Program-made: the position numbers and the translations under genes
Shown here: positions 2,540 to 61,010 of the stretch, in pieces
Layout: each line of letters opens with the position of its first letter
Numbering within the stretch: position 1 is the first letter of the stretch
Notes under the pieces: model-generated
The model's input: the letters and a program-made list of their open reading frames with translations, nothing else
Database searches by the model: none
What the model was told of the DNA's origin: nothing
Assembly: GCA_000999025.1 (NCBI GenBank)
Contig: LCFM01000003.1
Span: 12,253 to 76,252 of the forward strand
Reading direction: 5' to 3'
DNA length: 64,000 nt
Source of the DNA: Parcubacteria group bacterium GW2011_GWA2_43_13
GTDB taxonomy: Bacteria > Patescibacteriota > Patescibacteriia > UBA9629 > GWA2-43-13

Positions 2540-2617
2540 ACATAAAAAAGAGGGGTGTGGATAAATAAGGAGATGAATAATTGAGGCGCATGGTGAGATG
2601 ATCTATACTTACGCTAT

Positions 2618-3034
2618 ATGAAACAATTTTTACAATACGTTATTACATTTGGAGTGCCTGTTTTAGTGCTTGCGTTGATGCTTGCACCTTTTTTTATTTT
2701 TAGAAAAGCGCGCGGTTGGCTGGGCTCTTGGCCCGGCGCGATTTTGCGGTGGGGAGTGGGGGTTGGGATTTGGTATTTAACAACAGATGTTTTTTTTAAT
2801 AAATTTTATTACTCTACATTACCTGGAATAGACAGTGCGAATATCGTCCTTATTTTAGGGTTATTTATATTTTTCCTTCTTTGGCCGTTCTTTGGATTTA
2901 ATCTTGCGCAAGGTAATAAACTAACCAAATCTATTATTTTTCAACTGATAGTAGGTCTGATAAATGTAGCAGTTGGTATTTTTATATTGATTATGGCTAT
3001 TCCATGGGGATTGGCCGGATTGGGAGGACTGTAA
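2618..3034 (+). CDS. hypothetical integral membrane protein
   Basis: 138 aa with several hydrophobic segments. No recognisable family. Confidence 0.45.
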   Translation: MKQFLQYVITFGVPVLVLALMLAPFFIFRKARGWLGSWPGAILRWGVGVGIWYLTTDVFFNKFYYSTLPGIDSANIVLILGLFIFFLLWPFFGFNLAQGNKLTKSIIFQLIVGLINVAVGIFILIMAIPWGLAGLGGL

Positions 3035-3082
3035 CCTCACCCCTACCCTCTCCTTATTAAGGAGAGGGAGACGACGGCACTC
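3035..3082 (+). repeat. Family B palindromic element (CCTCACCCCTACCCTCTCCTT-ATTA-AGGAGAGGGAGACGACGG)
   Basis: Perfect 10-bp stem CCCTCTCCTT/AAGGAGAGGG in the intergenic gap between 2618..3034 and 3089..5395. The right arm is a Shine-Dalgarno-like AAGGAGAGGG. Confidence 0.8.
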
Positions 3083-3088
3083 GTAATT

Positions 3089-5395
3089 ATGCGCAAAAAA
3101 ATTATTATCATCAACGTTATTTTATTATTAGGAGGAGGCATCTTGCTTCCGTTCCATTTTTTATCAGCCATAGATCAGCTGACTCCCATTATTATTGTAC
3201 CTGGTGTCGGCGCTTCGCTTAACTGGCAAACATTCACTGACCATGGGAATAATAGTTGGGATTTTGCACCAAGTGTAAATGACTATAAAACATTAATTCA
3301 AACACTTGAAGCACGTGGATATGTTTTAAACCAAAACCTCTTTATTGCGCATTATGATTGGCGGCAAAGTAATCTTTTATCAGCAACACAATATCTTAAA
3401 CCAGTGATTGATAAAGCAATACTAATCAATCGTACGAATGATGTCTATGTTATTGCTCACAGTATGGGCGGATTAGTAACACGATCATATGTGGAATATA
3501 ATAATGATACAAGAATTGCAAGCTTTATTATGCTTGGAACACCGAATTATGGATCCGGAGATACGTATACACTATGGGAAAATGGAACATTACCAGTAGG
3601 ATATACTGGAAAACGCGCATATGCCATCTTATTTTATCTCTGGTATCTTACAGCTTCTCAAAAATTATTTGGCGATAACTTTACTGCCGTACAACAAAAT
3701 GTCCAATCCGCAAAAGAGTTACTGCCGACATACGATTATCTCAAAAACGCAGAAACAGATGAAATAATTCCTTATGCAACGCATAAACGCAAAGCAAACA
3801 CCTTAAGCCGCAATTCGTTTTTAGAAAGTCTCAATGATCCATGGAGCATGCAAAAAATGATTGATCGTATTTTTAACACACACATTATCGCAGGCACTGG
3901 CGAGCAAACGCTAAAGTATATCCCTGTCGCGCCGGATAATGATACTAACAATGCGCAATGGACTGACGGTGTGCCATTACCTAATCCGCCACTAAAGGAT
4001 ACAGATGAGGGCGACGGGACAGTATTACTCGAAAGCGCGTTGATTAAAAATTTGGATATTCATAAACGGATTGTTTTGGTGCAGTCGTGGTGGAGGAAAG
4101 CGTTATCTTTATTCATACCTCACCCCTCCCTCTCCTTCTTAAGGAGAGGGAACGACGACGCCTCCGGACATCACCCCAACCCTCTTCCCAATCCGCCAGC
4201 TGGCGGATTGGGACAAGCTCTTGTAAAGGAGAGAGGGATTGACGTTGCCTACGCGCAAGAAGATGATGAAGGATATACGCATGAAGAATACATCCAAAAT
4301 TGCATTAATCGCGGAAAAACGCGGGAAGAATGCGAGCAACAACTTGAAAACTATTTTTTATCCAGCAGTTATCCAATTAAACTGCACACCATTGCCTCAA
4401 CCCATGGCGATTTGCCAACAACCGCGATCCCTAAAATCTTTGAAATACTTGGACTTGGCGCAGTGCCTGAAATACCGGCCCAACCATCCCCTATCCAACG
4501 ACTGCTCCAAGTATGGATTGGATCTCCTGTTGCAGTAGACATCACAGCCCCTGATGGAACCCCAATGAATGAAATAGAAAATATCGAAATCGCGACATCA
4601 GGTGGGGATGATCCGATTCAAATCATTTCCATCCCAGAACCGGAACAAGGGGAATATACTGTCACGCTTACTGGCACCGGAACAGGAGAATACCATCTTG
4701 CCGCCTCACTCATAAGCGATACTGAACAAACATTAACAACAAAAAATGGCACGACTGCGCCATCATTGCAAACAACATATACAGTAACAATCCCTGAACA
4801 ACCAGCAGAACCCACACAAAATCAAAACCTCTTTGAGCAAGAACCAACCACGGACTACACCCTTTCACTCTCGCAAGGATGGAATCTTATTTCTATCCCC
4901 TCTTTTATTTCCGACTCGTCTCCGGAATCATTCTTTGAAGAGAATATACAATCCATTGATTCTATTTGGTCGTATGACGCTTTGCAAGAAAATCCATGGC
5001 ACACATATTATCCGAACCGGCCGGAGCTCAACTCACTTACAACTCTCTCCCCCGGGTACGGCTATTGGATCAAATGGACATTGCAAGAGCCACTTACACT
5101 CACAAAACAAATAGCTCCGCTTGAGCAAGGGCCAATGACTCCGCCTTCACGCACACTCACAAATGGATGGAATTTAATCGGGCCATATCATCTCTTTAAT
5201 ACGCGATCAGGTGCTTTTGAAACAGCGTTTCAAACACTCACGCTGAATAATACCCCTTTATGGAAGTCCATACTTGGATATAATAATGACAGAAAAATAT
5301 TTCAACGATTTTCGGATGATGATTTTGACGATGCAGGCAATGGCTACTGGCTGTTTGTGCAAAATAAAAAAGGATCCTCTGTGTTTGCTCCGTAA
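3089..5395 (+). CDS. secreted alpha/beta-hydrolase (lipase/esterase, PGAP1/LCAT-like) with a large C-terminal domain
   Basis: N-terminal signal peptide and a nucleophile elbow GxSxG (VIAHSMGGLV). Residues encoded by about 4118-4212 come from family B and E repeat sequences in frame. Confidence 0.55.
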   Translation: MRKKIIIINVILLLGGGILLPFHFLSAIDQLTPIIIVPGVGASLNWQTFTDHGNNSWDFAPSVNDYKTLIQTLEARGYVLNQNLFIAHYDWRQSNLLSATQYLKPVIDKAILINRTNDVYVIAHSMGGLVTRSYVEYNNDTRIASFIMLGTPNYGSGDTYTLWENGTLPVGYTGKRAYAILFYLWYLTASQKLFGDNFTAVQQNVQSAKELLPTYDYLKNAETDEIIPYATHKRKANTLSRNSFLESLNDPWSMQKMIDRIFNTHIIAGTGEQTLKYIPVAPDNDTNNAQWTDGVPLPNPPLKDTDEGDGTVLLESALIKNLDIHKRIVLVQSWWRKALSLFIPHPSLSFLRRGNDDASGHHPNPLPNPPAGGLGQALVKERGIDVAYAQEDDEGYTHEEYIQNCINRGKTREECEQQLENYFLSSSYPIKLHTIASTHGDLPTTAIPKIFEILGLGAVPEIPAQPSPIQRLLQVWIGSPVAVDITAPDGTPMNEIENIEIATSGGDDPIQIISIPEPEQGEYTVTLTGTGTGEYHLAASLISDTEQTLTTKNGTTAPSLQTTYTVTIPEQPAEPTQNQNLFEQEPTTDYTLSLSQGWNLISIPSFISDSSPESFFEENIQSIDSIWSYDALQENPWHTYYPNRPELNSLTTLSPGYGYWIKWTLQEPLTLTKQIAPLEQGPMTPPSRTLTNGWNLIGPYHLFNTRSGAFETAFQTLTLNNTPLWKSILGYNNDRKIFQRFSDDDFDDAGNGYWLFVQNKKGSSVFAP
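4118..4212 (+). repeat. Family B element plus 26-bp perfect palindrome CCCAATCCGCCAGCTGGCGGATTGGG, inserted in frame within the hydrolase gene
   Basis: CCTCACCCCTCCCTCTCCTTCTTAAGGAGAGGGAACGACGACGCCTCC is nearly identical to the copy at 3035. It is translated as LSLFIPHPSLSFLRRGNDDASGHHPNPLPNPPAGGLGQ. Confidence 0.75.
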
Positions 5396-5405
5396 TGAGG
5401 GAGAT

Positions 5406-5469
5406 GTAGAGACGGGGTTAACCCCGTCTCTACGATTATTAAAAAGACACCCCGCTGGGGCGTCTCTAC
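5406..5469. repeat. Family A composite element (GTAGAGACGGGGTTAACCCCGTCTCTAC plus AGACACCCCGCTGGGGCGTCTCTAC)
   Basis: Lies between the convergent hydrolase gene and parB. Probably acts as a bidirectional terminator. Confidence 0.8.
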
Positions 5470-5499
5470 ACTACTCAAGATATGAGCCAAGCACGTGTA

Positions 5500-12614: not shown

Positions 12615-12690
12615 AGTACTTTATTTTAATACGGGCTAAAAACATCTGCTATCATAACGAAAAAATCCCTTTATTGCAAGGGGGGTCGGT

Positions 12691-12754
12691 GTAGAGACGC
12701 GGCGGTGCCACGTCTTATAGATACAAGAGACGCCCCAACGGGGCGCGTCTCTAC
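12691..12754. repeat. Family A composite element (unit Y-like GTAGAGACGCGGCGGTGCCACGTCTTATAG plus unit X GAGACGCCCCAACGGGGCGCGTCTCTAC)
   Basis: Read directly. Sits in the intergenic gap between two minus-strand genes. Confidence 0.8.
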
Positions 12755-12757: not shown

Positions 12758-13306
12758 CTAATATAATGTTTTTTTATTCAAAAAGATGACTCTAAAAAAT
12801 TTATGTCGCCGAAAAAAATACTTATCACATGACACTGCCTTCGATCCGCTTGCAAATAGCAAAACAACTCCTATCACAATCATCAAGAGATTCAGTGTCC
12901 ATCCGGCCGCGCTCATCCAGCCGGAGAGAATAAAAAACATGGCATTCAATTTTATACTGCCGATCGCCGCGATATTCACCAAAAAACCAAGAATCAACAA
13001 AACACCAATAGTAACCTCTGCCCATTGCAAGAGTGTGCCTGCGGTGTGTGCGTTGGGAAGAATATAGTTGTGAAACAATGATGAAAACCACACAGGGACA
13101 TCTCCTGAAAGCATCTTATTGAGCGTCTGTTCGATGCCATTAACAAAATCAGGACTTTTCACTTTTTCATACCCGGCATGCAACCACACCGCACCCATCA
13201 TAATGCGGATCACTGAAAGCCAAAATGAACTGTATTTATCCGGCGCATTTCCTACTGATATGGACATAGTCATTAAACCACAAAAAACAAGAAACAAATA
13301 ACACAA
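12758..13306 (-). CDS. DoxX-family membrane protein
   Basis: Multi-TM 180-aa protein with a DoxX-like hydrophobic profile (MMGAVWLHAGYEKV). Confidence 0.5.
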   Translation of the reverse strand: MCYLFLVFCGLMTMSISVGNAPDKYSSFWLSVIRIMMGAVWLHAGYEKVKSPDFVNGIEQTLNKMLSGDVPVWFSSLFHNYILPNAHTAGTLLQWAEVTIGVLLILGFLVNIAAIGSIKLNAMFFILSGWMSAAGWTLNLLMIVIGVVLLFASGSKAVSCDKYFFRRHKFFRVIFLNKKTLY

Positions 13307-13348
13307 AACTTAAAAATTGTTTACTGTTTTTTGTTTATTGTCGCTCGG

Positions 13349-13588
13349 TTATACTGCTACCACTTCTATTACTTCTGGTACAATTTCTTTGAGTTGTTTT
13401 TCAATGCCGAATTTTAAAGTGAGATTCGAAATCGGGCAGTGTTCGCACGCACCCTGCAACGCCACAGTTACAACTCCATTTGTATAACTCACAAACGACA
13501 CATCCCCGCCATCTTGCTGAATCAATGGGCGAATTCCTTGAATCACTTTTTCAATTTTTTCTAATTCTGACATAGATATAGTATACAC
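13349..13588 (-). CDS. nfu: NifU-like C-terminal domain protein (Nfu-type Fe-S carrier)
   Basis: ALQGACEHCPIS motif (CxxC), 79 aa. Sits at the end of the suf operon. Confidence 0.75.
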   Translation of the reverse strand: MYTISMSELEKIEKVIQGIRPLIQQDGGDVSFVSYTNGVVTVALQGACEHCPISNLTLKFGIEKQLKEIVPEVIEVVAV

Positions 13589-13592
13589 ATTT

Positions 13593-13982
13593 TCACATTA
13601 TTACACCACGACTCAACGCTTCTCTTAAAGCGTCACGAACCAAAAGTGCACACTTGAGGCGCACTGGGGTAAGGGAAATGCCTAATAAATCTGTTACTGT
13701 TTCCGACGTCATTTGCTCTACTTCTTGGATTTCCTTCTCTTTTGCCCATTCAGTCAATAGAGAAGCGCTGGCAATGCATATCGCGCATCCATGGCCATCA
13801 AACCCAATAGCGACAATATTTGACAATTGACAATTGACAATTGACATTTGGACCCACACTTCAACCTCATCCCCACACAACGGATTAGAAACCTTACCAG
13901 AATAATGCGTAAAATCATCCAACCTCCCTCGGTTTCGCGGGTTTTTGTAATGATCTAAAATCTGCTCACGGTACATTGACAT
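13593..13982 (-). CDS. sufU: Fe-S cluster scaffold SufU/IscU-like, carrying an in-frame repeat insertion
   Basis: HYKNPRNRG ... CGDEV ... GCAICIASAS conserved scaffold motifs. The loop between them is expanded by MSIVNCQLSNIV, which is encoded by the family C repeat. Confidence 0.75.
   Translation of the reverse strand: MSMYREQILDHYKNPRNRGRLDDFTHYSGKVSNPLCGDEVEVWVQMSIVNCQLSNIVAIGFDGHGCAICIASASLLTEWAKEKEIQEVEQMTSETVTDLLGISLTPVRLKCALLVRDALREALSRGVIM
13816..13852. repeat. Family C tandem repeat (TTGACAA x4) inside sufU
   Basis: atatttgacaattgacaattgacaattgacatttgga, in frame. Confidence 0.8.
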
Positions 13983-14034
13983 AAAATCATATTTATGGTA
14001 AGAGGTACCTTACCTCAACATAGAAAGGCGCAAC

Positions 14035-14442
14035 ATGTTGTCACGAAAGATCCGGCGCACGCCTCATAGCCCAGTGCCACAAATAACAGTGAGTTACAAT
14101 ATAGTACCACAGGCGAACCTCCGCTCTGCGGACCTCCGCGAGGCGGACCTCCGCTCTGCGAACCTCCGCGAGGCGGACCTCCGCTCTGCGAACCTCAGCT
14201 GGGCGTTCCTCAACTGGGCGGACCTCCGCTCTGCGGACCTCCGCAAGGCGAACCTCCGCTCTGCGGACCTCCGCGAGGCGGACCTCCGCAAGGCGAACCT
14301 CCGCGGGGCGTTCCTCAACTGGGCGGACCTCCGCTCTGCGGACCTCCGCGAGGCGTTCCTCAGCGGAGCGAAATACAATGCACAAACCATGTTCCCCGAA
14401 GGATTTGATCCGAAAACCGCAGGAATGATCAAACAGGAATGA
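14035..14442 (+). CDS. pentapeptide-repeat protein
   Basis: ANLRSADLREADLRSANL repeats (A[DN]LxxA[DN]L). The underlying DNA is a 30-nt-period tandem repeat, so the antisense frames are also open. Confidence 0.55.
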   Translation: MLSRKIRRTPHSPVPQITVSYNIVPQANLRSADLREADLRSANLREADLRSANLSWAFLNWADLRSADLRKANLRSADLREADLRKANLRGAFLNWADLRSADLREAFLSGAKYNAQTMFPEGFDPKTAGMIKQE

Positions 14443-14508
14443 TCAAATCCGAGAACTAACTCCCCCCTGCCGACGCGAAGCTGTATCTACAGTTCCGCGT
14501 TTTTTTTA

Positions 14509-15780
14509 TTACAACCGCTTCTGTACACTTTTTATACCAACCACCAACCTCTCAACATCCTCTTCGGTATTATATACCCATACGCTTGCCCGACACGATG
14601 CGACAAGTCCTAAGTATTCATGCAAAGGCATAGCGCAGTGATGACCAGCGCGGATGGCAATATTTTGTTCATCCAATAATTGGGCTACATCATGAGCGTG
14701 GATGTTAGGGAAGTTAAACGAAATCAAACCAGAGCGTTTTTCAATCTCGCGAGGACCAAGAATCCAGTTTTCAGTTTTCATCTGCCAGCTGGCGGATCGG
14801 TTTTCAAATTTGACATTTGATAACTGACAACTGATATTTGAAAGTATTGCCTCCTCGTGCTTCCGTATATCATTCCAGCCCAAACTCTTTAACCAATTCA
14901 CTGCCGCGGCAAGCCCAATCGCGCCTGCGATATGTGGAGTGCCTGCTTCAAATTTATGCGGAACATCATTCCAAACCGAATAATCGCGATGCACTTCGCG
15001 GATCATATCCCCACCAGTTATAAACGGCTCCATCTCTTGCAGGCGTGATGACTTTGCGTATAACACGCCAATGCCGGTTGGGCCACCTAATTTATGCCCG
15101 GAAAACACCAGAAAATCACAATCTAAATCTCCCACATCCACTTTCATGTGAGGAACTGATTGCGAAGCATCAATCAATACTGGCACATGATGTTCATGCG
15201 CTTGTTTGATGATTTCTTTTATTGGATTGACCGTGCCAAGCACATTGGAGACATGGGTAAGCGCGAGGAAATTGATTGACTCAAAATAATGGTCAGGAAT
15301 AATCAATTCTCCATTTGCATCAACTTCCAAGTACCGTAACGTACTACCTTTGACATTTGACAACTGACATTTGACAACCGACTGCCACGGCACAATATTG
15401 CTGTGATGCTCGGCAATGGATAACCCAATAACCGCACCGTCACCCCCTCCTTTTAAAGGAAAGGGGAGGGGGTGGTTTCGCAACCACGCGTACGCGACTA
15501 AATTGATCGCCTCGGTCGCGTTGCGCGTAAAAATAATCTCGGAAGGATGCGCGCCAATAAAGCTGGCAACATCCTCCCGCGCCTGCTCATACGCCGCGGT
15601 GGCGCGATTAGAAAGCGCATAAATCCCCCTATGAACATTCGCGCTGTATTCGGTGTAATACTTGTTCATCGCGTCAATCACGCACTGCGGTTTTAGTGCT
15701 GTCGCCGCGCTATCTAAATACACCAAATCTGGATGATGGTTAAATATCGGAAATTCTTTTTTAATACTTTGATCAAACAT
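14509..15780 (-). CDS. sufS: cysteine desulfurase SufS (PLP-dependent), with three in-frame repeat insertions
   Basis: RAGHHCA active-site motif and the PLP lysine region (SGHKLGGPTG). The start was set at MFDQSIK to avoid overlap with the upstream gene. Confidence 0.85.
   Translation of the reverse strand: MFDQSIKKEFPIFNHHPDLVYLDSAATALKPQCVIDAMNKYYTEYSANVHRGIYALSNRATAAYEQAREDVASFIGAHPSEIIFTRNATEAINLVAYAWLRNHPLPFPLKGGGDGAVIGLSIAEHHSNIVPWQSVVKCQLSNVKGSTLRYLEVDANGELIIPDHYFESINFLALTHVSNVLGTVNPIKEIIKQAHEHHVPVLIDASQSVPHMKVDVGDLDCDFLVFSGHKLGGPTGIGVLYAKSSRLQEMEPFITGGDMIREVHRDYSVWNDVPHKFEAGTPHIAGAIGLAAAVNWLKSLGWNDIRKHEEAILSNISCQLSNVKFENRSASWQMKTENWILGPREIEKRSGLISFNFPNIHAHDVAQLLDEQNIAIRAGHHCAMPLHEYLGLVASCRASVWVYNTEEDVERLVVGIKSVQKRL
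14771..14844. repeat. Family C/E repeat in sufS (GCCAGCTGGCGGAT plus TTGACA-type heptamers)
   Basis: ctgccagctggcggatcggttttcaaatttgacatttgataactgacaactgatatttg is translated as NISCQLSNVKFENRSASWQMKTENW. Confidence 0.75.
15348..15384. repeat. Family C tandem repeat in sufS
   Basis: ctttgacatttgacaactgacatttgacaaccgactg is translated as KCQLSNVKGST. Confidence 0.8.
15441..15474. repeat. Family B-like palindrome in sufS (CACCCCCTCCTTTTAAAGGAAAGGGGAGGGGGTG)
   Basis: Imperfect hairpin translated as PLPFPLKGGGDG. Confidence 0.65.
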
Positions 15781-15802
15781 AAAATTGTCATGACACTTTA
15801 TT

Positions 15803-16192
15803 TTAATGACCATTCTTGCCACATCCGCACTGCCCCCCGCAACAACCATCCTGTGCCCCACTACCTCCGCAACACTCGTCATCCTCAATCATCACCACAA
15901 CCTCATCTCCCTCCACCAAAACCTTATACGTTTTCAATGGATGCGTCGCAGGCAATGCAAGCACTTTGCCGGTTTTGATATCAAACCGCGCGCCATGGCG
16001 AGGGCACTCAATAATATGATCGTCAATAATCACGCCCTGCACCAAAGACGCTCCTTTATGCGTGCACTCATCATCAAGGGCAAACCACCCATCTTGAAGA
16101 TGATACACAGTAATCTTTTTTCCACTAATCTCAAACCTCTTTTTTTTACCAATAGAAATATCACCTATTGGAATATTTAACTGTTTTGACAT
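15803..16192 (-). CDS. Rieske [2Fe-2S] domain protein with a cysteine-rich C-terminal tail
   Basis: CTHKGASL and CPRHGARF Rieske boxes. The tail is ECCGGSGAQDGCCGGQCGCGKNGH. Confidence 0.75.
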   Translation of the reverse strand: MSKQLNIPIGDISIGKKKRFEISGKKITVYHLQDGWFALDDECTHKGASLVQGVIIDDHIIECPRHGARFDIKTGKVLALPATHPLKTYKVLVEGDEVVVMIEDDECCGGSGAQDGCCGGQCGCGKNGH

Positions 16193-16197
16193 AGATA

Positions 16198-16845
16198 CTA
16201 TGATTGAGGTATTAATTTCATCACTTCGAATAAAAATCCTTTGATGATCATTTCTTGCGCTAATGCCTTTTCTATACCACGACTTTGGAGATAAAACAAC
16301 TGCCTATCATCAATCCTACCAGTCGTTGCGGCATGGCTTGCTTTGACATCATTGGCTTCTATTTCCAACTCCGGCTTGCTTTCTGATTTTGCATGTTTTG
16401 ATAGCAACAACACCCGATTTTCTAAAAACGCGTTTGATTGCTGGGCTGGTTTATCAATTTTGATCATGCCGTTGAACACTTGTTTACTCGCATCTTTCCC
16501 CACGCCTTTGAATAATGTTTTTGATTGCGAGCGCGGACCAAGATGATGAACAGTAAGATTGAATTGATAATGACTATCGTGTTCAGCAAGAACTGCGCCA
16601 CAGATTTCTGCCCGTGCGTCTGCGTGGAGTTCAACGCGCAGAGTACGGCGCGTCATCGTACCCTCTCCTAATGTAGGAGAGGGTACGATGACACTCGTCG
16701 GTACAAAAAAATACCGCACAACTCCAAACGGCTCTACCGTAATCACCGCCTCTCCCGAAACTCCCCCATCATCAACCACCACCAACTCATCGTTGGGATT
16801 AACACAAATATTATTCATCATATCAGACCAATGCAATAACTTCAT
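16198..16845 (-). CDS. sufD: SufD-like Fe-S assembly protein (short)
   Basis: C-terminal SufB/D core ([27 protein letters not shown]). The ORF contains family B element 16651-16692, which also offers an internal SD+ATG (start MTRRTLRVEL at 16656). Confidence 0.65.
   Translation of the reverse strand: MKLLHWSDMMNNICVNPNDELVVVDDGGVSGEAVITVEPFGVVRYFFVPTSVIVPSPTLGEGTMTRRTLRVELHADARAEICGAVLAEHDSHYQFNLTVHHLGPRSQSKTLFKGVGKDASKQVFNGMIKIDKPAQQSNAFLENRVLLLSKHAKSESKPELEIEANDVKASHAATTGRIDDRQLFYLQSRGIEKALAQEMIIKGFLFEVMKLIPQS
16651..16692. repeat. Family B element (CGTCATCGTACCCTCTCCTA-ATG-TAGGAGAGGGTACGATGAC)
   Basis: 19-bp near-perfect inverted repeat. Both orientations read AGGAGAGGG-N4-ATG. Confidence 0.8.
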
Positions 16846-16881
16846 AGTCGTTCATTCAAACACCTCCCCCTACGGTTGGCA

Positions 16882-18276
16882 TCAGCCAACCGATCCCTCC
16901 ATCTCCAACTCAATCAACCGATTCATCTCCACCGCGTACTCCAAAGGCAATTCTTTTACAATCGGCTCTATAAACCCATTCACCATCATTAAACTTGCTT
17001 CTTGCGGCGACAAACCACGGGATTGTAAATAAAACAACTGCTCTGTCCCTATTTTAGAAACCGTTGCTTCATGGCCAATAGAAACATCATCATTGTCAAT
17101 TTCCATCACCGGATAGGTGTCCGAACGCGACGCCTCATCCAAAATCAATGCATCGCACTGTACATTGGATTTTACGCCATACGCCTCCGGATGAATTTTT
17201 AATAACCCGCGATACGAAGTTCTGCCGCCATGATGACTGATGGATTTAGAAACAATATGCGAGGTAGTAAGCGGAGCCACATGCACCACTTTACCGCCCG
17301 CGTCTTGATGCTGACCTTCGCCTGCCATTGCCAAAGATAAAATATCAGCGCGCGCGCCTTTGCCCATTAAATACACAGATGGATATTTCATGGTAACTCG
17401 GCTCCCAAAATTACCATCCACCCATTCCATAGTCGCATCCTCATACGCGACTGCGCGTTTCGTCACGAGGTTGTACACATTTTTTGACCAATTCTGCACC
17501 GTGGTATACCGCACACGCGCGCCACGCAATACAATAATCTCCACCACCGCGCTGTGCAAAGATGCTGATTGATAGATAGGCGCGGTACAACCTTCCACAT
17601 AATGCACAAAACTGCCTTCATCCGCGATAATCAAGGTCCGTTCAAACTGCCCCATATTCTGCGCGTTGATGCGAAAATACGCTTGCAATGGCGTGTTGAC
17701 TTGCACTCCTGGAGGAACATACACAAAACTTCCGCCGCTCCACACCGCGCTATTTAAAGCGGCAAACTTGTTATCCCCAGAAGGAATCACGGTGCCAAAA
17801 TATTGTTTTACCAAATCAGGATGCTCTCGCATCGCGGTTTCAACATCAGAAAACACCACCCCTAAATCAACAAGCTCTTTACGCATATTATGATACACCA
17901 CTTCACTATCATACTGCGCGCCGACTCCCGCTAAAAAATCCTGCTCCATTTGCGGGATGCCTAAACGATCAAATGTTTTTTTAATATCTTTAGGCAAATC
18001 AGACCATTCTTGCGTACTTCGCTCTGTTGGTTTGAGATAATAATACATCTCATCAAAATTGATGCCTGACAAATCCGCGCCCCAATGTGGCATCTTTTTT
18101 TTACAAAACACATCATACGCATGCAGGCGATACTCCAGCATCCATTGCGGTTCATTTTTATAACGCGAAATCATTTCCACAATCGCACGAGACAACCCCT
18201 TGGGGGTTTTAAAAATATGAGCTTCAGTATCCTTAAATCCGTATTGATAATCCGGTTGTATTTGAATAAATGACAT
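16882..18276 (-). CDS. sufB: Fe-S cluster assembly protein SufB
   Basis: 464 aa with a conserved SufB C-terminus ([20 protein letters not shown]). Confidence 0.9.
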
Positions 18277-18290
18277 AATGGATATAAAAT

Positions 18291-18343
18291 ATCAATTTTC
18301 AAATGTCAAATTTGAAAACTGAAAACTGAAATTTGACATTTGG
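18291..18343. repeat. Family C tandem repeat (CTGAAAA/TTGACA heptamers), intergenic between sufC and sufB
   Basis: atcaattttcaaatgtcaaatttgaaaactgaaaactgaaatttgacatttgg. Confidence 0.8.
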
Positions 18344-19075
18344 TTACTGACTTTCTCTATACCCCATTGCTTCAACTTGTTCTGCCAACTCCTTTCCTCC
18401 ACTCTCCATAATCCTCCCCTGTTTCATAATATGCACATGCGTTGGAGTAAGATATTTCAAGATACGATTATAATGAGTAATAATCAACACGGACTTTTCA
18501 GGCGACATCCACTCATTGATGGATTGCGCAACCGCTTGCAGTGCATCAATATCCAAACCGGAATCAATCTCATCTATCACCGCAAACTTAGGATCAAGCA
18601 TTTTTAATTGCAAAATCTCTGCTTTCTTTTTTTCACCGCCTGAAAATCCTTCATTCACATTTCGATCGCTAAACTCTTCGGCAATCCCTAACGGTTGCAT
18701 CGCAGATGTAATCTCTTTTTGAAATTCAGCAACCGAACCGACTTCGGCGTGCGTGCGCTGATACGCAGTGCGCAAAAAACTGGAAAGCGATACCCCCGGA
18801 ATCTCGACAGGATACTGAAAAGCTAAAAAGACGCCCTTGCGAGCTCGCTCTTCTGGTGAAAAAGTCACAATACTTTTGCCTTCAAAAAGAATCTCCCCAT
18901 GAGTAACCTCAAACCCGGGGTTACCTGCAATCACCTGCGCAAGCGTTGATTTTCCGCTCCCATTCGGCCCCATAATCGCATGAATCTCGCCTGCGCGTAT
19001 CTCCAAAGATAGATTATGAATAATCACTTTTTGTTCCACACAAACATCCAAACCACGAACAAATACCATTGACAT
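18344..19075 (-). CDS. sufC: Fe-S cluster assembly ATPase SufC
   Basis: Walker A GPNGSGKST, ABC signature LSGGEKK, Walker B ILDEIDSGLD. Confidence 0.9.
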   Translation of the reverse strand: MSMVFVRGLDVCVEQKVIIHNLSLEIRAGEIHAIMGPNGSGKSTLAQVIAGNPGFEVTHGEILFEGKSIVTFSPEERARKGVFLAFQYPVEIPGVSLSSFLRTAYQRTHAEVGSVAEFQKEITSAMQPLGIAEEFSDRNVNEGFSGGEKKKAEILQLKMLDPKFAVIDEIDSGLDIDALQAVAQSINEWMSPEKSVLIITHYNRILKYLTPTHVHIMKQGRIMESGGKELAEQVEAMGYRESQ

Positions 19076-30735: not shown

Positions 30736-30778
30736 AGGGTGAATAGTAATGTGATATCTGATAACTGACATTTAGAAT

Positions 30779-34184: not shown

Positions 34185-34200
34185 ATATTGCTGTATTCCA

Positions 34201-34267
34201 AATATCAAATGTCAGTTATCAGTTTTCAAATTTGACAACTGAAAATTGACAACTGAAAACTGCCAGT
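34201..34267. repeat. Family C tandem repeat between the hydrogenase subunit genes
   Basis: aatatcaaatgtcagttatcagttttcaaatttgacaactgaaaattgacaactgaaaactgccag. Confidence 0.8.
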
Positions 34268-35992: not shown

Positions 35993-37672
35993 TCACACTG
36001 TCCGGTTCGCCAGCGCCAAATGCATGTTAGTAAAGCGCGCTAAATTTGCGACTTGCCGCGCATGCAACCTCTCGCATGGCAAATCCCAGTGCATGGAAAT
36101 CCAATCACCTATAGCCGCATCATCCATTGACCCATCATCAGCCAAATGACGCCTGATAACGCGTTGCTCAACCGTAGCAAGATACAACTTCGCGCCATCA
36201 AACCGAATCGGCTGGCGCTCAACTGTAATTACTGGTCCGTCAATCGCAATCACTTTCCCCCAGCTAATCCTACAAGAATCAATACTCTCCACAGTATGCG
36301 GCTCCTCTTTATGCCCCATCCTCTGCCAGATGTTCATCACCTGAAACGAATGGTGCATTTTTGCCCCGCCAGATATTTTATCCTCAATATATCCAAAATA
36401 CTTACTACCAAACCGATCTTTTACTTTGAGTGTATCTTTCAAGTGGATATACATATCCTGCTTGGATGGTGTATCCAAAAGCTCATTTCCAACCCAATAC
36501 GCTTCAACCACTTTTTCATGCAAAGGGTCGGAAAGATGATTGGCGTCAGCAATGGCTTTTAAATAGGGATACATCACTTCAAACTGTGACAACAAATACC
36601 GCAGACCATAGTCCGCGGTGTTTTCGCCAAGATACGCCAACATCTCGCCCGATTTATCTGGTCCGCAAAAGTGCAATCTGTTCGGTGAAAACGCGTATCG
36701 CGCGCAACGAATAATCCCCTGCTCTTGAGATAGTAATTGAGGTGAGACCATAGAAACCATCGTCTCCCTCTCCTTTATTAAGGAGAGGGCTGGGGTGAGA
36801 TTTTTTTGTCGTGATGACATCACAAATACACCTGCTCCAGCCACAAGCAATATCATCGGAACAATCAATGCGCTTGGCCATTGTCCTGTTGTGATGTTTT
36901 GCAGTACAACCGTAATCGGAAACGCCAACACTAACACTGTTGATACAAACGAAGCGGATAATTTTTTTAATCCCGTATACCAACACGCAACATACCCACA
37001 CAACACCATACCTGTCACCAATGCCCAACCCACCTGCTCCCATGTTTGAGGAATCAACGCTTGTCCGCTCCCTTGAGCAATACTGTAAACAATCAAAAGC
37101 ACCGCACCAAACGCCATCCGTGCCCAAGCTCCAACCAGAGCCGGAATATTCTGCAATATTTTTTTTGCAATGATCGTCTCAATTGCCCATAAAATCGTAG
37201 CCCCCAATGCAAGAAAAAATCCTATTCCCCAGTCCCATCCCTTTAGGCCGCCTAACATCACCACGCCTATCATCATCACCACTATCCCAAGCCATTGCAA
37301 TCTACTCACCTTTTCTTTCAAGTAAACGGCAGACATAACAGCAACCCACACAAATAGGGTTTTATGAATAAACGCGGCTTGCGTTGCCGGCACCAACGTC
37401 AAACTCTTGAAAAATAAGACAAATGGCACAGAACCGCCAATCACACCGATTACAACAAGGTTGATCCATTGCTTCTTATTTAACAATTTCAATACTCGCC
37501 ATTGGGCAACCGCGCCCACCAACCCTGCCAGCAAACATGCGGCAATGATATTTTTTGTTGTTGTATACGCTACCGCATCAGACCAACTTCCCACACCAAA
37601 TTTATTGATAAACACCGCCACGCCACTGATAAGCGCTGTAATAAAGGGTAAAATAAATACATTATTTTTCAT
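35993..37672 (-). CDS. continuous ORF: N-terminal DMT/EamA-type transporter (about 37672-36800) joined in frame, through family B element 36758-36818, to a 255-aa unknown soluble domain (internal SD+ATG at 36760)
   Basis: Ten hydrophobic helices typical of EamA. The element reads AAGGAGAGGGAGACG-ATGGTTTCT on the coding strand. These are likely two genes, or a fusion created by the element. Confidence 0.5.
   Translation of the reverse strand: MKNNVFILPFITALISGVAVFINKFGVGSWSDAVAYTTTKNIIAACLLAGLVGAVAQWRVLKLLNKKQWINLVVIGVIGGSVPFVLFFKSLTLVPATQAAFIHKTLFVWVAVMSAVYLKEKVSRLQWLGIVVMMIGVVMLGGLKGWDWGIGFFLALGATILWAIETIIAKKILQNIPALVGAWARMAFGAVLLIVYSIAQGSGQALIPQTWEQVGWALVTGMVLCGYVACWYTGLKKLSASFVSTVLVLAFPITVVLQNITTGQWPSALIVPMILLVAGAGVFVMSSRQKNLTPALSLIKERETMVSMVSPQLLSQEQGIIRCARYAFSPNRLHFCGPDKSGEMLAYLGENTADYGLRYLLSQFEVMYPYLKAIADANHLSDPLHEKVVEAYWVGNELLDTPSKQDMYIHLKDTLKVKDRFGSKYFGYIEDKISGGAKMHHSFQVMNIWQRMGHKEEPHTVESIDSCRISWGKVIAIDGPVITVERQPIRFDGAKLYLATVEQRVIRRHLADDGSMDDAAIGDWISMHWDLPCERLHARQVANLARFTNMHLALANRTV
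36758..36818 (-). repeat. Family B element (reverse orientation relative to the 3035 copy)
   Basis: The reverse complement reads CTCACCCCAGCCCTCTCCTTAATAAAGGAGAGGGAGACGATGG. Confidence 0.8.
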
Positions 37673-39577: not shown

Positions 39578-39656
39578 AGACGCCCCACTGGGGCGTCTTC
39601 AGGAAAATGCGACAATAGTGCATCTCTCATAAAGACGTGCCATCGGCACGTCTCTA
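39574..39656. repeat. Family A composite element (unit X GTAGAGACGCCCCACTGGGGCGTCTTC plus unit Y AAAGACGTGCCATCGGCACGTCTCTAC)
   Basis: Same architecture as 352-423. Lies between convergent genes. Confidence 0.8.
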
Positions 39657-39662
39657 CAAACA

Positions 39663-43102: not shown

Positions 43103-43195
43103 CCCTCGTTCCCCTCCCCTATAATCGGGGAGGGCAGGGTGGGGTATATGACCTCCCTCTACCCCCTCCTTCACAAGGAGAGGAAGATATTATCG
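43103..43195. repeat. two Family B-like hairpins (CCCCTCCCC-TATAATC-GGGGAGGG and CCCCCTCCTT-CACA-AGGAGAGG)
   Basis: Intergenic between the HAD gene and pgk. Confidence 0.7.
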
Positions 43196-53607: not shown

Positions 53608-53646
53608 AGATTCTTTCTGTATTGTAACAGAAATCTCCCACCAGTT

Positions 53647-53675
53647 GTAGAGACACCCCCCTGAGGCGTCTCTAT
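53647..53675. repeat. Family A-like single hairpin (GTAGAGACACCCCCCTGAGGCGTCTCTA)
   Basis: Read directly. Confidence 0.7.
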
Positions 53676-54242: not shown

Positions 54243-54350
54243 CACCCCCTCCTTATACAGGATGGGGAAACTGATACATCACCTCTCCTTTACAAAGAGA
54301 GTGCCCATACGTCTCCCTCTCCGTTGCAAGGAGAGGGTAGGGTGAGGTTT
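54243..54350. repeat. cluster of three Family B hairpins (last copy reverse: CCTCACCCTACCCTCTCCTT-GCAAC-GGAGAGGGAGACGTAT)
   Basis: Intergenic between the HD gene and the MazG-like gene. Also encodes the last residues of the MazG-like ORF. Confidence 0.75.
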
Positions 54351-56448: not shown

Positions 56449-56499
56449 AATATCAGATTTCGATTCTCACATATCAAATTCTCTACGATTAACGCGGTC

Positions 56500-56536
56500 G
56501 TCATTTGAAAACTGACATCTGACATTTGATAATTGG
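56500..56536. repeat. Family C tandem repeat
   Basis: gtcatttgaaaactgacatctgacatttgataattgg. Confidence 0.75.
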
Positions 56537-56539
56537 ATA

Positions 56540-57778
56540 TTATTCATACCGCAACGCCTCGATCGGGCTTTTTCCTGCGGCCTTTTTTGCGGGATACAAG
56601 CCAAATACTAATCCGATAAGAGCGGAAACCCCCAGTCCTAACAGAGCCGCGTCAATAGGGAACACAAATGCCCACTGCATGGTTGCAAACCGCGATAACA
56701 GAAACGACGCGCTCCACGAAAGAAAAGCGCCAAACGCAATACCCACTATCCCGCCGATACCAGTAAGCATCACTGCCTCGCATAAAAATTGTATCAAAAT
56801 ATCGCGATCCCTGGCACCCACTGCCTTTCGTAACCCAATTTCGCGCGTCCGTTCCGCAACTGCCACAAGCATAATATTCATAATACCGATACCGCCCACA
56901 ACCAACGATATCGCCGCAACCGCACCCAACAACAATGTCAGTACTCCAGTTATAACTCCAACCCGCTCAATCGCGTCCGCCTGGGTAGTAACATGAAAAT
57001 CATCTTTTGATGGATCAGCAATCCCATGCGTCTCCCGTAATGTAAGCTCCACATCGCGTGCAACCCGCTCAACGCTTTCATCCGTCACCGCTTGCGCAAT
57101 AATGGAATGATAATAATTGATGCCGAGTAAATATTCCTGCGCCGTGGTGTAAGGAATAAAAATAATATCATCAACATTAACCAGCGACACGCGCCCCTTT
57201 TTCCCCATCACACCAATCACGCGTAAAGATTGATTTTTGACTTTAATTTTTTCGCCTATCGCATTTTGGCCATTAAATAATTTATTTTTTATTTCCGCGC
57301 CAAGCACTGCAACTGACGCGCGCTGGCGTACATCTTCATCCGTAAACATGGCACCTTCGGCAGGCCGAATATCCAAAATATCAGTCAACAAATCGGAAGA
57401 TCCCCATACTGTTGTTCGCACTGATTCATTTTTATAATTCACAGACGCGGCAACAGTAACAACCGGCGTCATATCTTTTAAATCCTGTACATTTGCGAGT
57501 TTGCTCAATGCGCGAATATCTTTTTCTGTTAACGAATCAGTATACATTTCAGCAAAATCAGATGGGCCTTGTGGTTCTCTCCCCGGCTCTATCGAGATTG
57601 TACGGCTCCCCCACCCTTGAATTTGGCTCAAAATCAATTCCTGCGCTCCGGCGCCGATTGCCATCACCATCATAATGGCGGTAATGCCGATCACAATCCC
57701 CAGAATAGTCAAAGCAGATCGAGACCGATTCGATTTTAACCCATGTACTGCTTGTATGATTGCGTAACGAAGCTTCAT
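56540..57778 (-). CDS. ABC transporter permease (MacB/FtsX-like)
   Basis: N-terminal TM, large periplasmic domain, and C-terminal FtsX 3-TM block. Confidence 0.85.
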   Translation of the reverse strand: MKLRYAIIQAVHGLKSNRSRSALTILGIVIGITAIMMVMAIGAGAQELILSQIQGWGSRTISIEPGREPQGPSDFAEMYTDSLTEKDIRALSKLANVQDLKDMTPVVTVAASVNYKNESVRTTVWGSSDLLTDILDIRPAEGAMFTDEDVRQRASVAVLGAEIKNKLFNGQNAIGEKIKVKNQSLRVIGVMGKKGRVSLVNVDDIIFIPYTTAQEYLLGINYYHSIIAQAVTDESVERVARDVELTLRETHGIADPSKDDFHVTTQADAIERVGVITGVLTLLLGAVAAISLVVGGIGIMNIMLVAVAERTREIGLRKAVGARDRDILIQFLCEAVMLTGIGGIVGIAFGAFLSWSASFLLSRFATMQWAFVFPIDAALLGLGVSALIGLVFGLYPAKKAAGKSPIEALRYE

Positions 57779-57798: not shown

Positions 57799-57893
57799 CG
57801 TCATCCGTAGGGTGGCACCTCTCCTTGTTAAGGAGAGGAGGACGACGGCGTATCCCCCCTCCTTAACAAGGAGGGGGTAGGGGGTGGTCTACC
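57799..57893. repeat. two Family B elements head-to-head (forward copy ...CACCTCTCCTT-GTTA-AGGAGAGGAGGACGACGGCG; reverse copy CCACCCCCTACCCCCTCCTT-GTTA-AGGAGGGGGG)
   Basis: Intergenic between the ABC permease and ATPase genes. Confidence 0.8.
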
Positions 57894-60999: not shown

Positions 61000-61010
61000 A
61001 GTATCGCGAT

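What the first reader, a model, noticed from the sequence alone, without database searches (positions are those of the whole stretch)
13593..16845. Short repeat elements inserted in frame into essential Fe-S assembly genes (sufU, sufS, sufD)
sufU, sufS and sufD each carry repeat-derived sequence that is translated in frame without disrupting the conserved catalytic motifs. The sufU loop between CGDEV and GCAICIASAS is expanded by MSIVNCQLSNIV, encoded by the (TTGACAA)4 repeat at 13816-13852. sufS contains three such insertions: 14771-14844 gives ISCQLSNVKFENRSASWQMKTENW, 15348-15384 gives KCQLSNVKGST, and 15441-15474 gives PLPFPLKGGGDG. sufD contains the family B palindrome at 16651-16692. The same repeat families also occur in intergenic positions at 18291, 34201, 56500, 3035 and elsewhere. 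This closely parallels Rickettsia palindromic elements, which create new peptide segments inside housekeeping proteins. In-frame insertions of this kind are known in few lineages.
Basis: partly seen in the sequence, partly recalled or inferred. Interest (0 to 1): 0.85.

Follow-up and report, generated by a model that had tools for sequence, protein, structure and literature searches.

The report
Repeat DNA translated inside Fe-S genes
In an uncultivated groundwater bacterium of the Candidate Phyla Radiation, tiny hairpin and 7-base repeats that normally lie between genes also sit in frame inside three intact iron-sulfur assembly genes, and related genomes carry different repeats at the same protein loops.

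Summary
sufU, sufS and sufD (minus strand) carry five repeat-derived segments. All five are in frame and free of stop codons, and the catalytic residues are intact. The same repeat families fill the window's intergenic spacers, far above chance.

An independent assembly reproduces the region at 99.83% identity with no gaps, so the segments are not artefacts.

The closest named relative is a Candidatus Jacksonbacteria genome. It lacks these inserts in SufU, SufD and SufS sites 1 and 2. In 107 other SufS homologues the three loops have almost fixed lengths. Closer relatives carry different elements at the same loops, and one small palindrome is nested inside another element.

Structure models place the inserts in the only low-confidence loops of SufS and at the tip of a beta-hairpin in SufU. 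dN/dS is about 0.1.

Best reading: selfish hairpin and heptamer mini-elements, like REPs and Rickettsia palindromic elements, are translated in certain loops and turn over there. Translation and the means of mobility are inferred.

In-frame REPs are already known in several species. New here are the host lineage, the translated heptamer arrays, the recurrent sites, and one hairpin that recurs in very diverse metagenome contigs.

The parts
13593..13982 (-). sufU (129 aa, NifU_N domain). The three Cys ligands C36, C66 and C111 are intact.
13816..13852 (-). Family H. A direct heptamer array, (TTGTCAA)x4 on the sense strand, translated as SIVNCQLSN. It forms the tip of the beta2-beta3 hairpin of SufU.
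14509..15780 (-). sufS (423 aa, type II cysteine desulfurase; E=8e-111 to B. subtilis SufS). The PLP lysine K230 and the catalytic C382 are intact.
14771..14844 (-). SufS site 4 (aa 313-338). An imperfect heptamer hairpin from family H that is orthologous to one in L061. Only 1 of its 6 reading frames is open, and that is the frame used.
14780..14797 (-). An 18-nt insertion carrying the mini-palindrome TC(T/C)GCCAGCTGGCGGA (family P4), nested inside the site-4 element. The orthologous site in L061 is empty.
15348..15384 (-). SufS site 2 (aa about 134-146). A direct heptamer array from family H, translated as VKCQLSNVK.
15441..15474 (-). SufS site 1 (aa 103-115). The hairpin CACCCCCTCC..GGAGGGGGTG (family P3), with a predicted RNA folding energy of -21 kcal/mol. 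L061 and L064 have a related hairpin at the same site, and L064 reads it in a different frame.
16198..16845 (-). Short sufD (215 aa, SUFBD_core domain at aa 62-204).
16650..16694 (-). Perfect palindrome GTCATCGTACCCTCTCCTA-ATG-TAGGAGAGGGTACGATGAC (P1-like), translated as VIVPSPTLGEGTMT. Predicted RNA folding energy is -42 kcal/mol, z = -9.
18282..18343 (.). Intergenic family H hairpin made of inverted heptamer arrays, between sufC and sufB. None of its 6 reading frames is open.
34198..34265 (.). Intergenic family H hairpin between the two hydrogenase subunit genes. None of its 6 reading frames is open.
56495..56540 (.). Intergenic family H array.
3033..3078 (+). Intergenic copy of family P1: ACCTCACCCCTACCCTCTCCTTATTAAGGAGAGGGAGACGACGGC.
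4117..4160 (+). Family P1 copy in frame inside the 768-aa LCAT-like hydrolase gene (3089-5395).
4170..4236 (+). Second P1-like copy in the same gene. It is split by a nested P4 palindrome, TCCCAATCCGCCAGCTGGCGGATTGGGA (4186-4213).
36755..36800 (-). Family P1 copy in frame (NLTPALSLIKERE) in the linker between the EamA and DUF6390 domains of gene 35993-37672.
57816..57879 (.). An intergenic pair of P1/P3 hairpins. Further intergenic copies lie at 43107-43194, 54246-54344 and 61005-61041.
5404..5470 (.). Family P2, GTAGAGACG..CGTCTCTAC. There are about 11 copies, all intergenic or at gene edges. Others lie near 351, 12690, 12723, 31098, 39573, 39630, 44416, 52780 and 53646.

Best explanation
The genome belongs to a Jacksonbacteria-related bacterium of the Candidate Phyla Radiation. 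It is colonised by several families of very small repeats.
- H: arrays of heptamers of the type TGACAWY, often as inverted arrays that form a hairpin.
- P1 and P3: GC-rich hairpins built on CCCTCTCC or CCCCTCC.
- P2: GTAGAGACG..CGTCTCTAC hairpins.
- P4: the 16-nt palindrome TCCGCCAGCTGGCGGA.

Shown:
- Most copies lie in the short spacers between genes, as REP elements do.
- A minority lie inside genes.
- Every in-gene copy preserves the reading frame and has no stop codon on the sense strand.

Inferred: these in-gene copies are translated and add a few residues to surface loops of SufS and SufD and to a beta-hairpin tip of SufU, far from the catalytic residues. The genes stay under purifying selection.

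What is maintained is the nucleic-acid element, not the peptide. The same hairpin is read in different frames in different genes and genomes.

Once a loop has been colonised it behaves as a landing pad. Related genomes carry different elements at the same loop. Elements insert into the tips or bodies of resident elements. Heptamer arrays at orthologous positions have genome-specific units, which points to continuing homogenisation or replacement.

Inferred, not shown: how the elements move (a RAYT-like single-strand transposase, or slippage and template switching), and whether the proteins really contain the extra residues.
For: Real, and not an artefact:
- An independent assembly from another sample (L066) matches window 13725-16683 at 99.83% with no gaps.
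- The relative's proteins are identical in three separate assemblies, L061, L062 and L063.

The families are far above chance.

Lineage-specific insertions:
- SufS loop lengths are nearly invariant in 107 non-clade homologues. The window has +8, +5 and +12 aa.
- SufU of L001 and of L067/P0124 has an ordinary loop.
- SufB and SufC have no inserts.

Recurrent sites with different content:
- SufU loop: window (TGTCAAT)x4, L061 (ATATCAA)x5, L064 198 nt made of three palindromes.
- A more distant SufU (P0126) has a family H type peptide in the same loop.
- SufD loop: a palindrome in the window, two or three elements in L061, inverted heptamer arrays in L064.

Nesting:
- An 18-nt P4 insertion is present in the window's site-4 element and absent at the same place in L061.
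- P4 also sits inside P1-like hairpins at window 4186-4213 and at L061 9021.

Selection for translatability:
- Complete intergenic family H hairpins have 0 of 6 frames open.
- In-gene copies are open only on the sense strand.
- All 7 in-gene P1 copies share one orientation, in two different frames.

Structure:
- The AlphaFold2 model of SufS has mean pLDDT 92.4, and its only weak blocks are the three inserts.
- In the SufU model (pLDDT 90) the insert is the tip of an elongated hairpin, strands E39-49 and E52-64.

Functional genes: dN/dS is 0.10, 0.09 and 0.14 for SufS, SufU and SufD, similar to neighbouring genes.

Generality: the P1 20-mer occurs in at least 120 metagenome contigs. It lies in frame in ORFs with Pfam domains of valyl-tRNA synthetase, UvrA, a RecG-like helicase, methionyl-tRNA synthetase and KsgA.

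Precedent: intragenic REPs and RPEs are described in PMC3733652, PMC1779305 and PMC10969869.
Against: - There is no proteomic or transcript evidence that the segments are translated.
- No transposase was found in the 64-kb window. A search of all fetched loci with an IS200 TnpA sequence recalled from memory found nothing.
- No target-site duplication is visible at the one clean filled/empty pair.
- Five of the eight in-gene elements sit in 3.9% of the coding DNA (binomial p about 5e-6, a post hoc test). The same three genes are hit in four genomes. Pure selfish spread plus tolerance does not fully explain this, because these loops have fixed lengths elsewhere in the family.
- Hairpin complementarity persists at orthologous sites although dS is above 1. 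That could reflect selection on an RNA or DNA structure rather than parasitism.
Confidence: 0.72

Rival explanations
1. The hairpins are kept in the suf operon for a regulatory purpose. As mRNA structures they could set the relative stability or translation of sufD, sufS and sufU. As DNA structures they could act in some other way. On this view the extra protein residues are a tolerated by-product.
For: - The elements cluster in sufS, sufU and sufD in four genomes.
- A further family H hairpin lies between sufC and sufB.
- The sufD hairpin is very stable: -42 kcal/mol, z = -9.
- Complementarity is retained at orthologous sites while the reading frame, and so the peptide, changes, even though dS is above 1.
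Against: - The content, number and even the family of the elements differ between close relatives at each site.
- The direct heptamer arrays in sufU and at sufS site 2 do not fold better than shuffled sequence, with z = -1.7 and -0.6.
- L001 and P0124 do without the SufU insert.
- The same families occur in unrelated genes and spacers.
Confidence: 0.12
2. The heptamer arrays act as phase-variation switches. One unit is 7 nt, so gaining or losing a unit by slippage would shift the frame and switch sufU or sufS off and on.
For: The repeat unit is not a multiple of 3, and the arrays lie inside coding sequence with 4-5 nearly perfect copies. Heptanucleotide phase variation is documented in Haemophilus influenzae (PMC8262952).
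Against: - L066 and the window show no difference in copy number (0 gaps).
- L061, L062 and L063 encode identical proteins.
- The arrays are short.
- The genes are Fe-S assembly genes under purifying selection.
Confidence: 0.04
3. The segments are not translated. They are removed from the mRNA or skipped by the ribosome, as intervening sequences or translational bypass elements.
For: Several of them form stable hairpins. No protein-level data exist.
Against: - Every in-gene copy in five genomes keeps the frame and has no sense-strand stop, including a 198-nt insert in L064 sufU.
- Forms whose frames are all closed are found only between genes.
- The SufU insert is modelled with high confidence as a regular extension of a beta-hairpin.
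Confidence: 0.05
4. The elements are not mobile. They arise in place by replication slippage (the heptamers) and by template switching that perfects quasi-palindromes. The family resemblance would then reflect a shared mutational bias.
For: - Heptamer units are genome-specific at orthologous positions.
- No target-site duplications were seen.
- No transposase was found.
Against: - P1 copies share about 45 nt, including asymmetric tails (ACCTCACCCC.. and ..GACGACG), at unrelated loci.
- The same 20-mer recurs in contigs with GC content from 21 to 73%.
- A discrete 18-nt P4 unit appears at four unrelated places.
Confidence: 0.07

Closest known systems
Rickettsia palindromic elements (RPEs)
   Same: Both are interspersed palindromic repeats found between genes and in frame inside housekeeping genes. 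Both add peptide segments that are compatible with the protein fold, and both proliferate in particular lineages (PMC1779305, PMC10969869). RPE ends carry a CGTC tag (PMC3733652). The P1 copies in this clade end in GACGACG, which reads CGTC on the other strand.
   Different: - RPEs are 100-150 bp. These elements are 21-74 nt.
- The host is a Candidate Phyla Radiation bacterium, not Rickettsia.
- Several unrelated families share the same loops.
- Three of the five suf inserts are tandem heptamer arrays rather than palindromes.
- Sequence similarity to RPE models was not tested.
Intragenic REPs of the GTAG and CGTC super-families (Di Nocera et al. 2013, PMC3733652)
   Same: Both are 20-40 bp hairpins in high copy, mostly just downstream of genes, with a minority inside known genes and encoding extra residues. 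That paper found them concentrated in repair genes such as uvrA and uvrB. My metagenome hits include UvrA (Pfam-confirmed), a RecG-like helicase (Pfam-confirmed) and apparent UvrB. CGTC REPs have no known transposase.
   Different: - P1 has a stem of 10-11 bp, a loop of 3-4 nt and a 12-nt tail. The described CGTC families have 8-9 bp stems, 4-5 nt loops and a 3-nt tail.
- In P2 the GTAG is base-paired rather than unpaired.
- Candidate Phyla Radiation hosts are not among the phyla named in the passages I read.
- Recurrent use of the same loops was not mentioned in those passages.
Cyanobacterial short tandemly repeated repetitive (STRR) heptamers and small dispersed repeats (recalled from my own knowledge, not checked against a paper here)
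   Same: Both involve dispersed arrays of tandem heptanucleotides, and very small elements nested inside other repeats.
   Different: The unit sequences and the host phylum differ. I know of no report of STRR arrays translated inside essential genes, or paired as inverted arrays in this way.
REPINs and RAYT transposases (PMC3116915, PMC3733652)
   Same: This is a plausible mobilisation route: single-strand hairpin recognition by an IS200-like tyrosine transposase. The P1 tail GGGGTGAG fits the GGGGWSAS motif reported in the terminal repeats that flank RAYT-like genes.
   Different: No RAYT gene was found in the window or in the fetched loci. The match to the motif is a lead, not a test.

Membership tests
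Rickettsia palindromic elements (RPE) | Interspersed repeat of 100-150 bp (PMC1779305) | tested here: not met
   The elements are 21-74 nt.
Rickettsia palindromic elements (RPE) | Copies occur both between genes and in frame inside protein-coding genes | tested here: met
   There are 8 in-gene copies, all in frame, and more than 20 intergenic copies in the window.
Rickettsia palindromic elements (RPE) | Sequence match to the RPE-1 to RPE-10 family models | not tested
   No RPE models or sequences were available in the tools. Rfam at gathering threshold found only three tRNAs.
Rickettsia palindromic elements (RPE) | CGTC tetranucleotide at one end (PMC3733652) | tested here: inconclusive
   P1 copies end in GACGACG(G/A) at 3033-3078, 4117-4160 and 57818-57849, and in L061 and L064. 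In the sufD copy the tag is base-paired. Families H and P3 have no such tag.
REP elements (GTAG and CGTC super-families) | Palindromes of 20-40 bp in high copy number | tested here: met
   In 64 kb there are at least 14 P1/P3 copies and about 11 P2 copies, against 0 expected.
REP elements (GTAG and CGTC super-families) | Mostly extragenic and close to the 3' ends of genes | tested here: met
   Most copies lie in the 7% of the window that is non-coding. All P2 copies are intergenic or at gene edges.
REP elements (GTAG and CGTC super-families) | Unpaired GTAG or CGTC tag, with the stem, loop and tail dimensions of the described families (Table 1 of PMC3733652) | tested here: inconclusive
   P2 begins with GTAG, but that GTAG pairs with CTAC. 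P1 has an unpaired GACG tail, but its stem is 10-11 bp, its loop 3-4 nt and its tail 12 nt.
REP elements (GTAG and CGTC super-families) | Association with a RAYT (IS200-like tyrosine transposase) gene | not testable with these tools
   No such gene appears among the window ORFs scanned with Pfam or in the fetched loci (using a seed recalled from memory). The rest of the genome is not available.
MITE | Terminal inverted repeats plus a target-site duplication | tested here: not met
   The one clean filled/empty pair, the 18-nt P4 insertion (window against L061), shows no duplication. The elements are whole palindromes rather than sequences bounded by terminal repeats.
Cyanobacterial STRR heptamer repeats | Dispersed tandem heptanucleotide arrays | tested here: met
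   Period-7 arrays lie at 13820, 15349, 18287-18342 and 34228. L061 and L064 also have them.
Cyanobacterial STRR heptamer repeats | The STRR unit sequences and a cyanobacterial host | tested here: not met
   The units here are TGACAWY, TGAAAAC, AATATCA and GGTATCA. The closest named relative is Candidatus Jacksonbacteria. The STRR unit sequences are recalled from memory only.
Phase-variable simple sequence repeat (contingency locus) | Copy number differs between closely related strains or within a population | tested here: not met
   L066 against the window shows 0 gaps. L061, L062 and L063 give identical proteins. Read-level data were not available.
SufS / SufU / SufD (functional Fe-S assembly genes) | Catalytic residues conserved and purifying selection acting | tested here: met
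   SufS K230, C382 and H125/H126 are invariant, as are SufU C36, C66 and C111. dN/dS is 0.09-0.14. The operon is syntenic in four genomes.

The most novel reading that the evidence does not exclude
Two linked ideas remain open.

1. The SufS, SufU and SufD loops are long-lived landing pads. At least four families of mini-elements insert into one another there and replace one another. That would imply a mechanism that targets hairpins.

2. P1 belongs to a hairpin of about 45 nt (ACCTCACCCCAGCCCTCTCC-loop-GGAGAGGG) whose 20-nt left half is identical, and whose partner arm is conserved in nearly all hits, in genomes ranging from 21 to 73% GC. It sits in frame in genes for tRNA synthetases, UvrA, a RecG-like helicase and KsgA.

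Together these would describe an unrecognised class of horizontally spreading elements, with no known transposase, that reshapes housekeeping proteins across uncultivated bacteria.
Probability: 0.3. Interest if true: 0.75.

Novelty: new variant of a known kind. Interest (0 to 1): 0.6.

Why it matters
It extends the Rickettsia picture of selfish DNA inside protein-coding genes to the Candidate Phyla Radiation, a large group of bacteria with small, gene-dense genomes and little room between genes.

It shows that tandem heptamer arrays, as well as palindromes, can apparently be read through as protein. It also shows that certain loops of essential enzymes are used again and again.

This gives a natural system for three questions:
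- How do proteins acquire new surface segments?
- How do ultra-small repeats move?
- Why does one particular hairpin recur in such different genomes?

There is a practical point too. Such inserts lengthen proteins and can mislead orthologue alignments, domain boundaries and gene calls in metagenome-assembled genomes.

Tried and rejected
- Source genome. The genome-contig scan did not contain it. The best hit was a Jacksonbacteria genome at 57% SufS identity. I reached closer relatives through the protein database instead.
- Rfam at gathering threshold found only three tRNAs, so no known RNA family explains the hairpins.
- Literature. Searches for Candidate Phyla Radiation or Patescibacteria together with palindromic repeats, in-frame insertions or MITEs found nothing relevant. 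Searches for the P1 sequence itself found nothing. Searches on cyanobacterial small dispersed repeats and STRR were unproductive. PMC186582 (Ogata 2002) is not held in the library.
- Transposases. Pfam scans of about 60 of the 71 ORFs called in the window found no transposase. A phmmer search of 8,173 ORFs from all fetched loci found nothing. Its seed was an IS200 TnpA sequence recalled from memory, so this is a weak negative.
- Assembly artefact: rejected.
- Ancestral low-complexity loops: rejected. Relatives have empty sites, and loop lengths are fixed in 107 homologues.
- Pseudogenisation: rejected.
- The 11-aa gap in ParB between the window and L061 lies in a disordered N-terminal linker. 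I did not inspect its DNA, and the window-wide repeat scans found no family member there.
- The apparent in-gene copies at 30748-30770 and 53646-53671 sit upstream of where the Pfam domains begin. They are probably in 5' leaders, so I did not count them.

Full report
**What is there**

Window 13349-19075 holds a suf operon on the minus strand:
- sufC, 18344-19075
- sufB, 16882-18276
- a short sufD, 16198-16845
- a Rieske-domain gene, 15803-16192
- sufS, 14509-15780
- sufU, 13593-13982
- a NifU-domain gene, 13349-13573

A pentapeptide-repeat ORF on the plus strand (14035-14442) lies between sufS and sufU.

**More than chance**

- The heptamer pattern has 31 matches in the window against 1.27 expected.
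- The CCCTCTCC..GGAGAGGG palindrome has 18 matches against 0 expected.
- GTAGAGACG..CGTCTCTAC has 3 matches against 0 expected, and looser copies bring it to about 11.
- TCCGCCAGCTGGCGGA has 3 matches against 0 expected.
- Hairpins with arms of at least 10 nt number 34, against 4-17 in simulated sequence.

I call the families H (heptamers), P1 and P3 (GC-rich hairpins), P2 (hairpins starting GTAG) and P4 (the 16-nt palindrome). About 93% of the window is coding, yet most copies sit in the spacers between genes. Eight lie inside genes:
- one in sufU
- three in sufS
- one in sufD
- two in an LCAT-like hydrolase gene (4117-4160 and 4170-4236)
- one in an EamA-DUF6390 gene (36755-36800)

**Not an artefact**

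A contig assembled independently from another sample (L066) matches window 13725-16683 at 99.83% identity with no gaps. That stretch covers four of the elements completely and most of the sufD palindrome.

**Whose genome**

- The closest named relative is a Candidatus Jacksonbacteria genome, in the Parcubacteria group of the Patescibacteria, with 57% SufS identity and the same gene order.
- The protein database gave closer, unnamed relatives. Their SufS identities are 77% (contigs L061-L063) and 72% (L064, L065). A third relative, L067, has a SufU about 67-70% identical.
- All are syntenic with the window.

**Lineage-specific, with recurrent sites**

- In 107 SufS homologues outside this clade, the three loops have almost fixed lengths. 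The medians are 16, 11 and 20 residues, and 96, 104 and 105 of the 107 sequences have exactly the median. Control segments never vary.
- The window exceeds those medians by 8, 5 and 12 residues. P0002 (L061) exceeds them by 11, 33 and 8, and P0003 (L064) by 35, 9 and 7.
- The Jacksonbacteria sequences exceed the medians only at site 4, by 23 residues. They also have an insert at a fourth site, where they are 7 residues longer than the window.
- SufB and SufC have no inserts in any of these genomes.
- Among 24 orthologous pairs between the window and L061, sizeable gaps occur only in SufS (35), SufD (31) and ParB (11). The ParB gap is in a disordered linker.

Codon-level alignment shows that the same loop holds different DNA in each genome.
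- SufU loop: (TGTCAAT)x4 in the window, (ATATCAA)x5 in L061, 198 nt made of three palindromes in L064, and nothing in L001 or L067. A more distant SufU, P0126, has a family H type peptide there (VIKCQLSSVNRMQKTENRKLT).
- SufD loop: a perfect palindrome in the window, two or three elements in L061, and inverted heptamer arrays in L064.

In L061, L064 and L001, GC-rich family-type hairpins inside genes occur only in SufS, SufU and SufD. In the window, five of the eight in-gene copies fall in 3.9% of the coding DNA. The binomial p is about 5e-6, but the test is post hoc.

**Signs of turnover**

- The window's sufS site-4 element is orthologous to the one in L061, but it contains an extra 18 nt (TCCGCCAGCTGGCAGATG). 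This is a clean filled/empty pair.
- The same mini-palindrome is nested inside P1-like hairpins at window 4186-4213 and at L061 9021. It also occurs alone at 6418.
- Within each genome, the heptamer elements at SufS sites 2 and 4 resemble each other more than they resemble the orthologous element in another genome. L064 has the identical 24-mer at both sites.

**The element is conserved, not the peptide**

- P1 is read as NLTPALSFLRRG in some genes and as TSPQPSPxKGEG in others.
- The site-1 hairpin is read in a different frame in L064 than in the window and L061.
- Complementarity survives at orthologous sites although dS exceeds 1.

**Are the segments translated?**

This is inferred, not shown. 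The evidence is indirect.
- Every in-gene copy in five genomes keeps the reading frame and has no sense-strand stop codon. That includes the 198-nt insert in L064.
- (TTGACAA)n contains TGA in all three frames, so only the opposite orientation can be read through. All in-gene arrays have that orientation.
- Complete intergenic family H hairpins have 0 of 6 frames open. The sufS site-4 copy has exactly one open frame, and it is the one used.
- All seven in-gene P1 copies share one orientation (two-sided p = 0.016).

Structure models point the same way.
- The AlphaFold2 model of SufS has mean pLDDT 92.4, and its only weak stretches are the three inserts.
- In the SufU model (pLDDT 90) the heptamer-encoded residues form the tip of an elongated beta-hairpin, strands 39-49 and 52-64. 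C36 and C66 lie at the other end of those strands, so the tip points away from the cluster-binding site.
- dN/dS between the window and L061 is 0.10, 0.09 and 0.14 for SufS, SufU and SufD, much like neighbouring genes.

**RNA folding**

- The sufD palindrome would fold at -42 kcal/mol (z = -9).
- SufS sites 1 and 4 would fold at about -20 kcal/mol (z near -2.7).
- The direct heptamer arrays in sufU and at sufS site 2 do not fold better than shuffled sequence.

**Wider distribution**

- The 20-mer CTCACCCCAGCCCTCTCCTT, the left half of P1, has at least 120 exact matches in metagenome contigs.
- The host contigs range from 21 to 73% GC, and nearly all hits have the partner arm.
- Many low-GC hits lie deep inside long open frames.
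- Five such ORFs have Pfam domains of valyl-tRNA synthetase, UvrA, a RecG-like helicase, methionyl-tRNA synthetase and the rRNA methyltransferase KsgA.
- So P1 is not private to this lineage, and in-frame copies in housekeeping genes are common.

**Comparison with what is known**

- Rickettsia palindromic elements are 100-150 bp repeats found between genes and in frame inside them (PMC1779305, PMC10969869).
- Di Nocera et al. (PMC3733652) described 20-40 bp REPs tagged with GTAG or CGTC in more than 80 species. A minority lie inside genes, often repair genes such as uvrA and uvrB. They also noted that RPE ends carry CGTC and that CGTC REPs lack a known transposase.
- The present elements behave like those intragenic REPs. 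P1 ends in GACGACG and P2 begins with GTAG. Stem, loop and tail dimensions do not match the described families, and the GTAG of P2 is base-paired.
- The tail of P1 (GGGGTGAG) fits a motif reported in the repeats that flank RAYT-like genes. That is a lead only.
- No transposase was found in the window or in the fetched loci.
- I found no paper reporting such elements in the Candidate Phyla Radiation.

**Verdict**

The kind of thing, selfish hairpin repeats translated inside genes, is already known. New here:
- the host lineage
- tandem heptamer arrays apparently read as protein
- repeated use of the same loops of SufS, SufU and SufD, with nesting and replacement
- the very wide distribution of one hairpin

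Still open:
- why these three genes are the ones hit
- how the elements move
- whether the hairpins do anything for the cell

Noticed in passing
window 14035-14442 (+): A pentapeptide-repeat ORF (135 aa; Pfam Pentapeptide, E=1e-30; DNA with a 15-nt period at 14112-14349) sits on the opposite strand between sufS and sufU. A similar ORF is present in L064 and L067 but absent in L061 and L001. Other genomes have different genes inserted in the operon: a HicA/HicB pair in L064, a 122-aa ORF in L001 and a 143-aa ORF in L061. The whole operon therefore looks like a hot spot for insertion.
   Followed up: partly
metagenome loci L068-L187: The P1 20-mer CTCACCCCAGCCCTCTCCTT occurs with its hairpin partner in at least 120 metagenome contigs whose GC content ranges from 21 to 73%. 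It is often in frame in housekeeping genes. One leucyl-tRNA-synthetase-like ORF (L122) carries several such inserts. A valyl-tRNA synthetase (L074) also has a heptamer-type peptide, CQMSNAKCQMS.
   Followed up: partly
window 35993-37672 (-): A single 559-aa ORF joins an EamA transporter domain to a DUF6390 domain. A P1 element lies in the linker, followed by ATG codons. A stop-free repeat may have fused two neighbouring genes.
   Followed up: no
window 2540-5521: This stretch holds a 138-aa ORF with no Pfam match and a 768-aa LCAT-like hydrolase that carries two in-frame elements. It is absent from the syntenic position in L061, where relA and parB are adjacent.
   Followed up: partly
window 351, 5404-5470, 12690-12750, 31098, 39566-39658, 44415, 52778, 53646: The GTAGAGACG..CGTCTCTAC family has about 11 copies. 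All lie between genes or at gene edges, mostly just after 3' ends, although most copies have open reading frames. L061 has one at 14723-14751.
   Followed up: partly
window 13280-13341; L064 4594-4664: A-rich heptamer arrays in opposite orientation (ACAAAAA, then ATTGTTT) lie in the spacer between the NifU-domain gene and the DoxX gene. Similar arrays occupy the equivalent spacer in L064.
   Followed up: no
L064 2068-2091 and 2629-2652: The identical 24-nt hairpin GGTATCGGGTTAAAACCCGAAACC occurs at two different loops (sites 2 and 4) of the same sufS gene. It gives the peptide YQVSGIGLKPE twice.
   Followed up: partly
window 1-64000: GC skew is negative along the whole window, so the cumulative skew falls almost steadily. 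Nearly all genes are on the minus strand, which suggests the window lies within one replichore.
   Followed up: no
window 46937-52453 (-): An ORF of 1,838 aa has no Pfam match at E<=1e-5.
   Followed up: no
window 30748-30770 and 53646-53671: Repeat copies overlap the annotated 5' ends of the AhpC/TSA and DJ-1/PfpI genes. The Pfam domains begin at aa 18 and aa 33, so the true start codons are probably downstream and the repeats lie in the 5' leaders.
   Followed up: partly
window 55138-56439 (-): An OLD-family nuclease gene (AAA_21/AAA_15 ATPase domains plus an OLD-like TOPRIM domain), a candidate defence gene, is followed by a heptamer array at 56495-56540.
   Followed up: no
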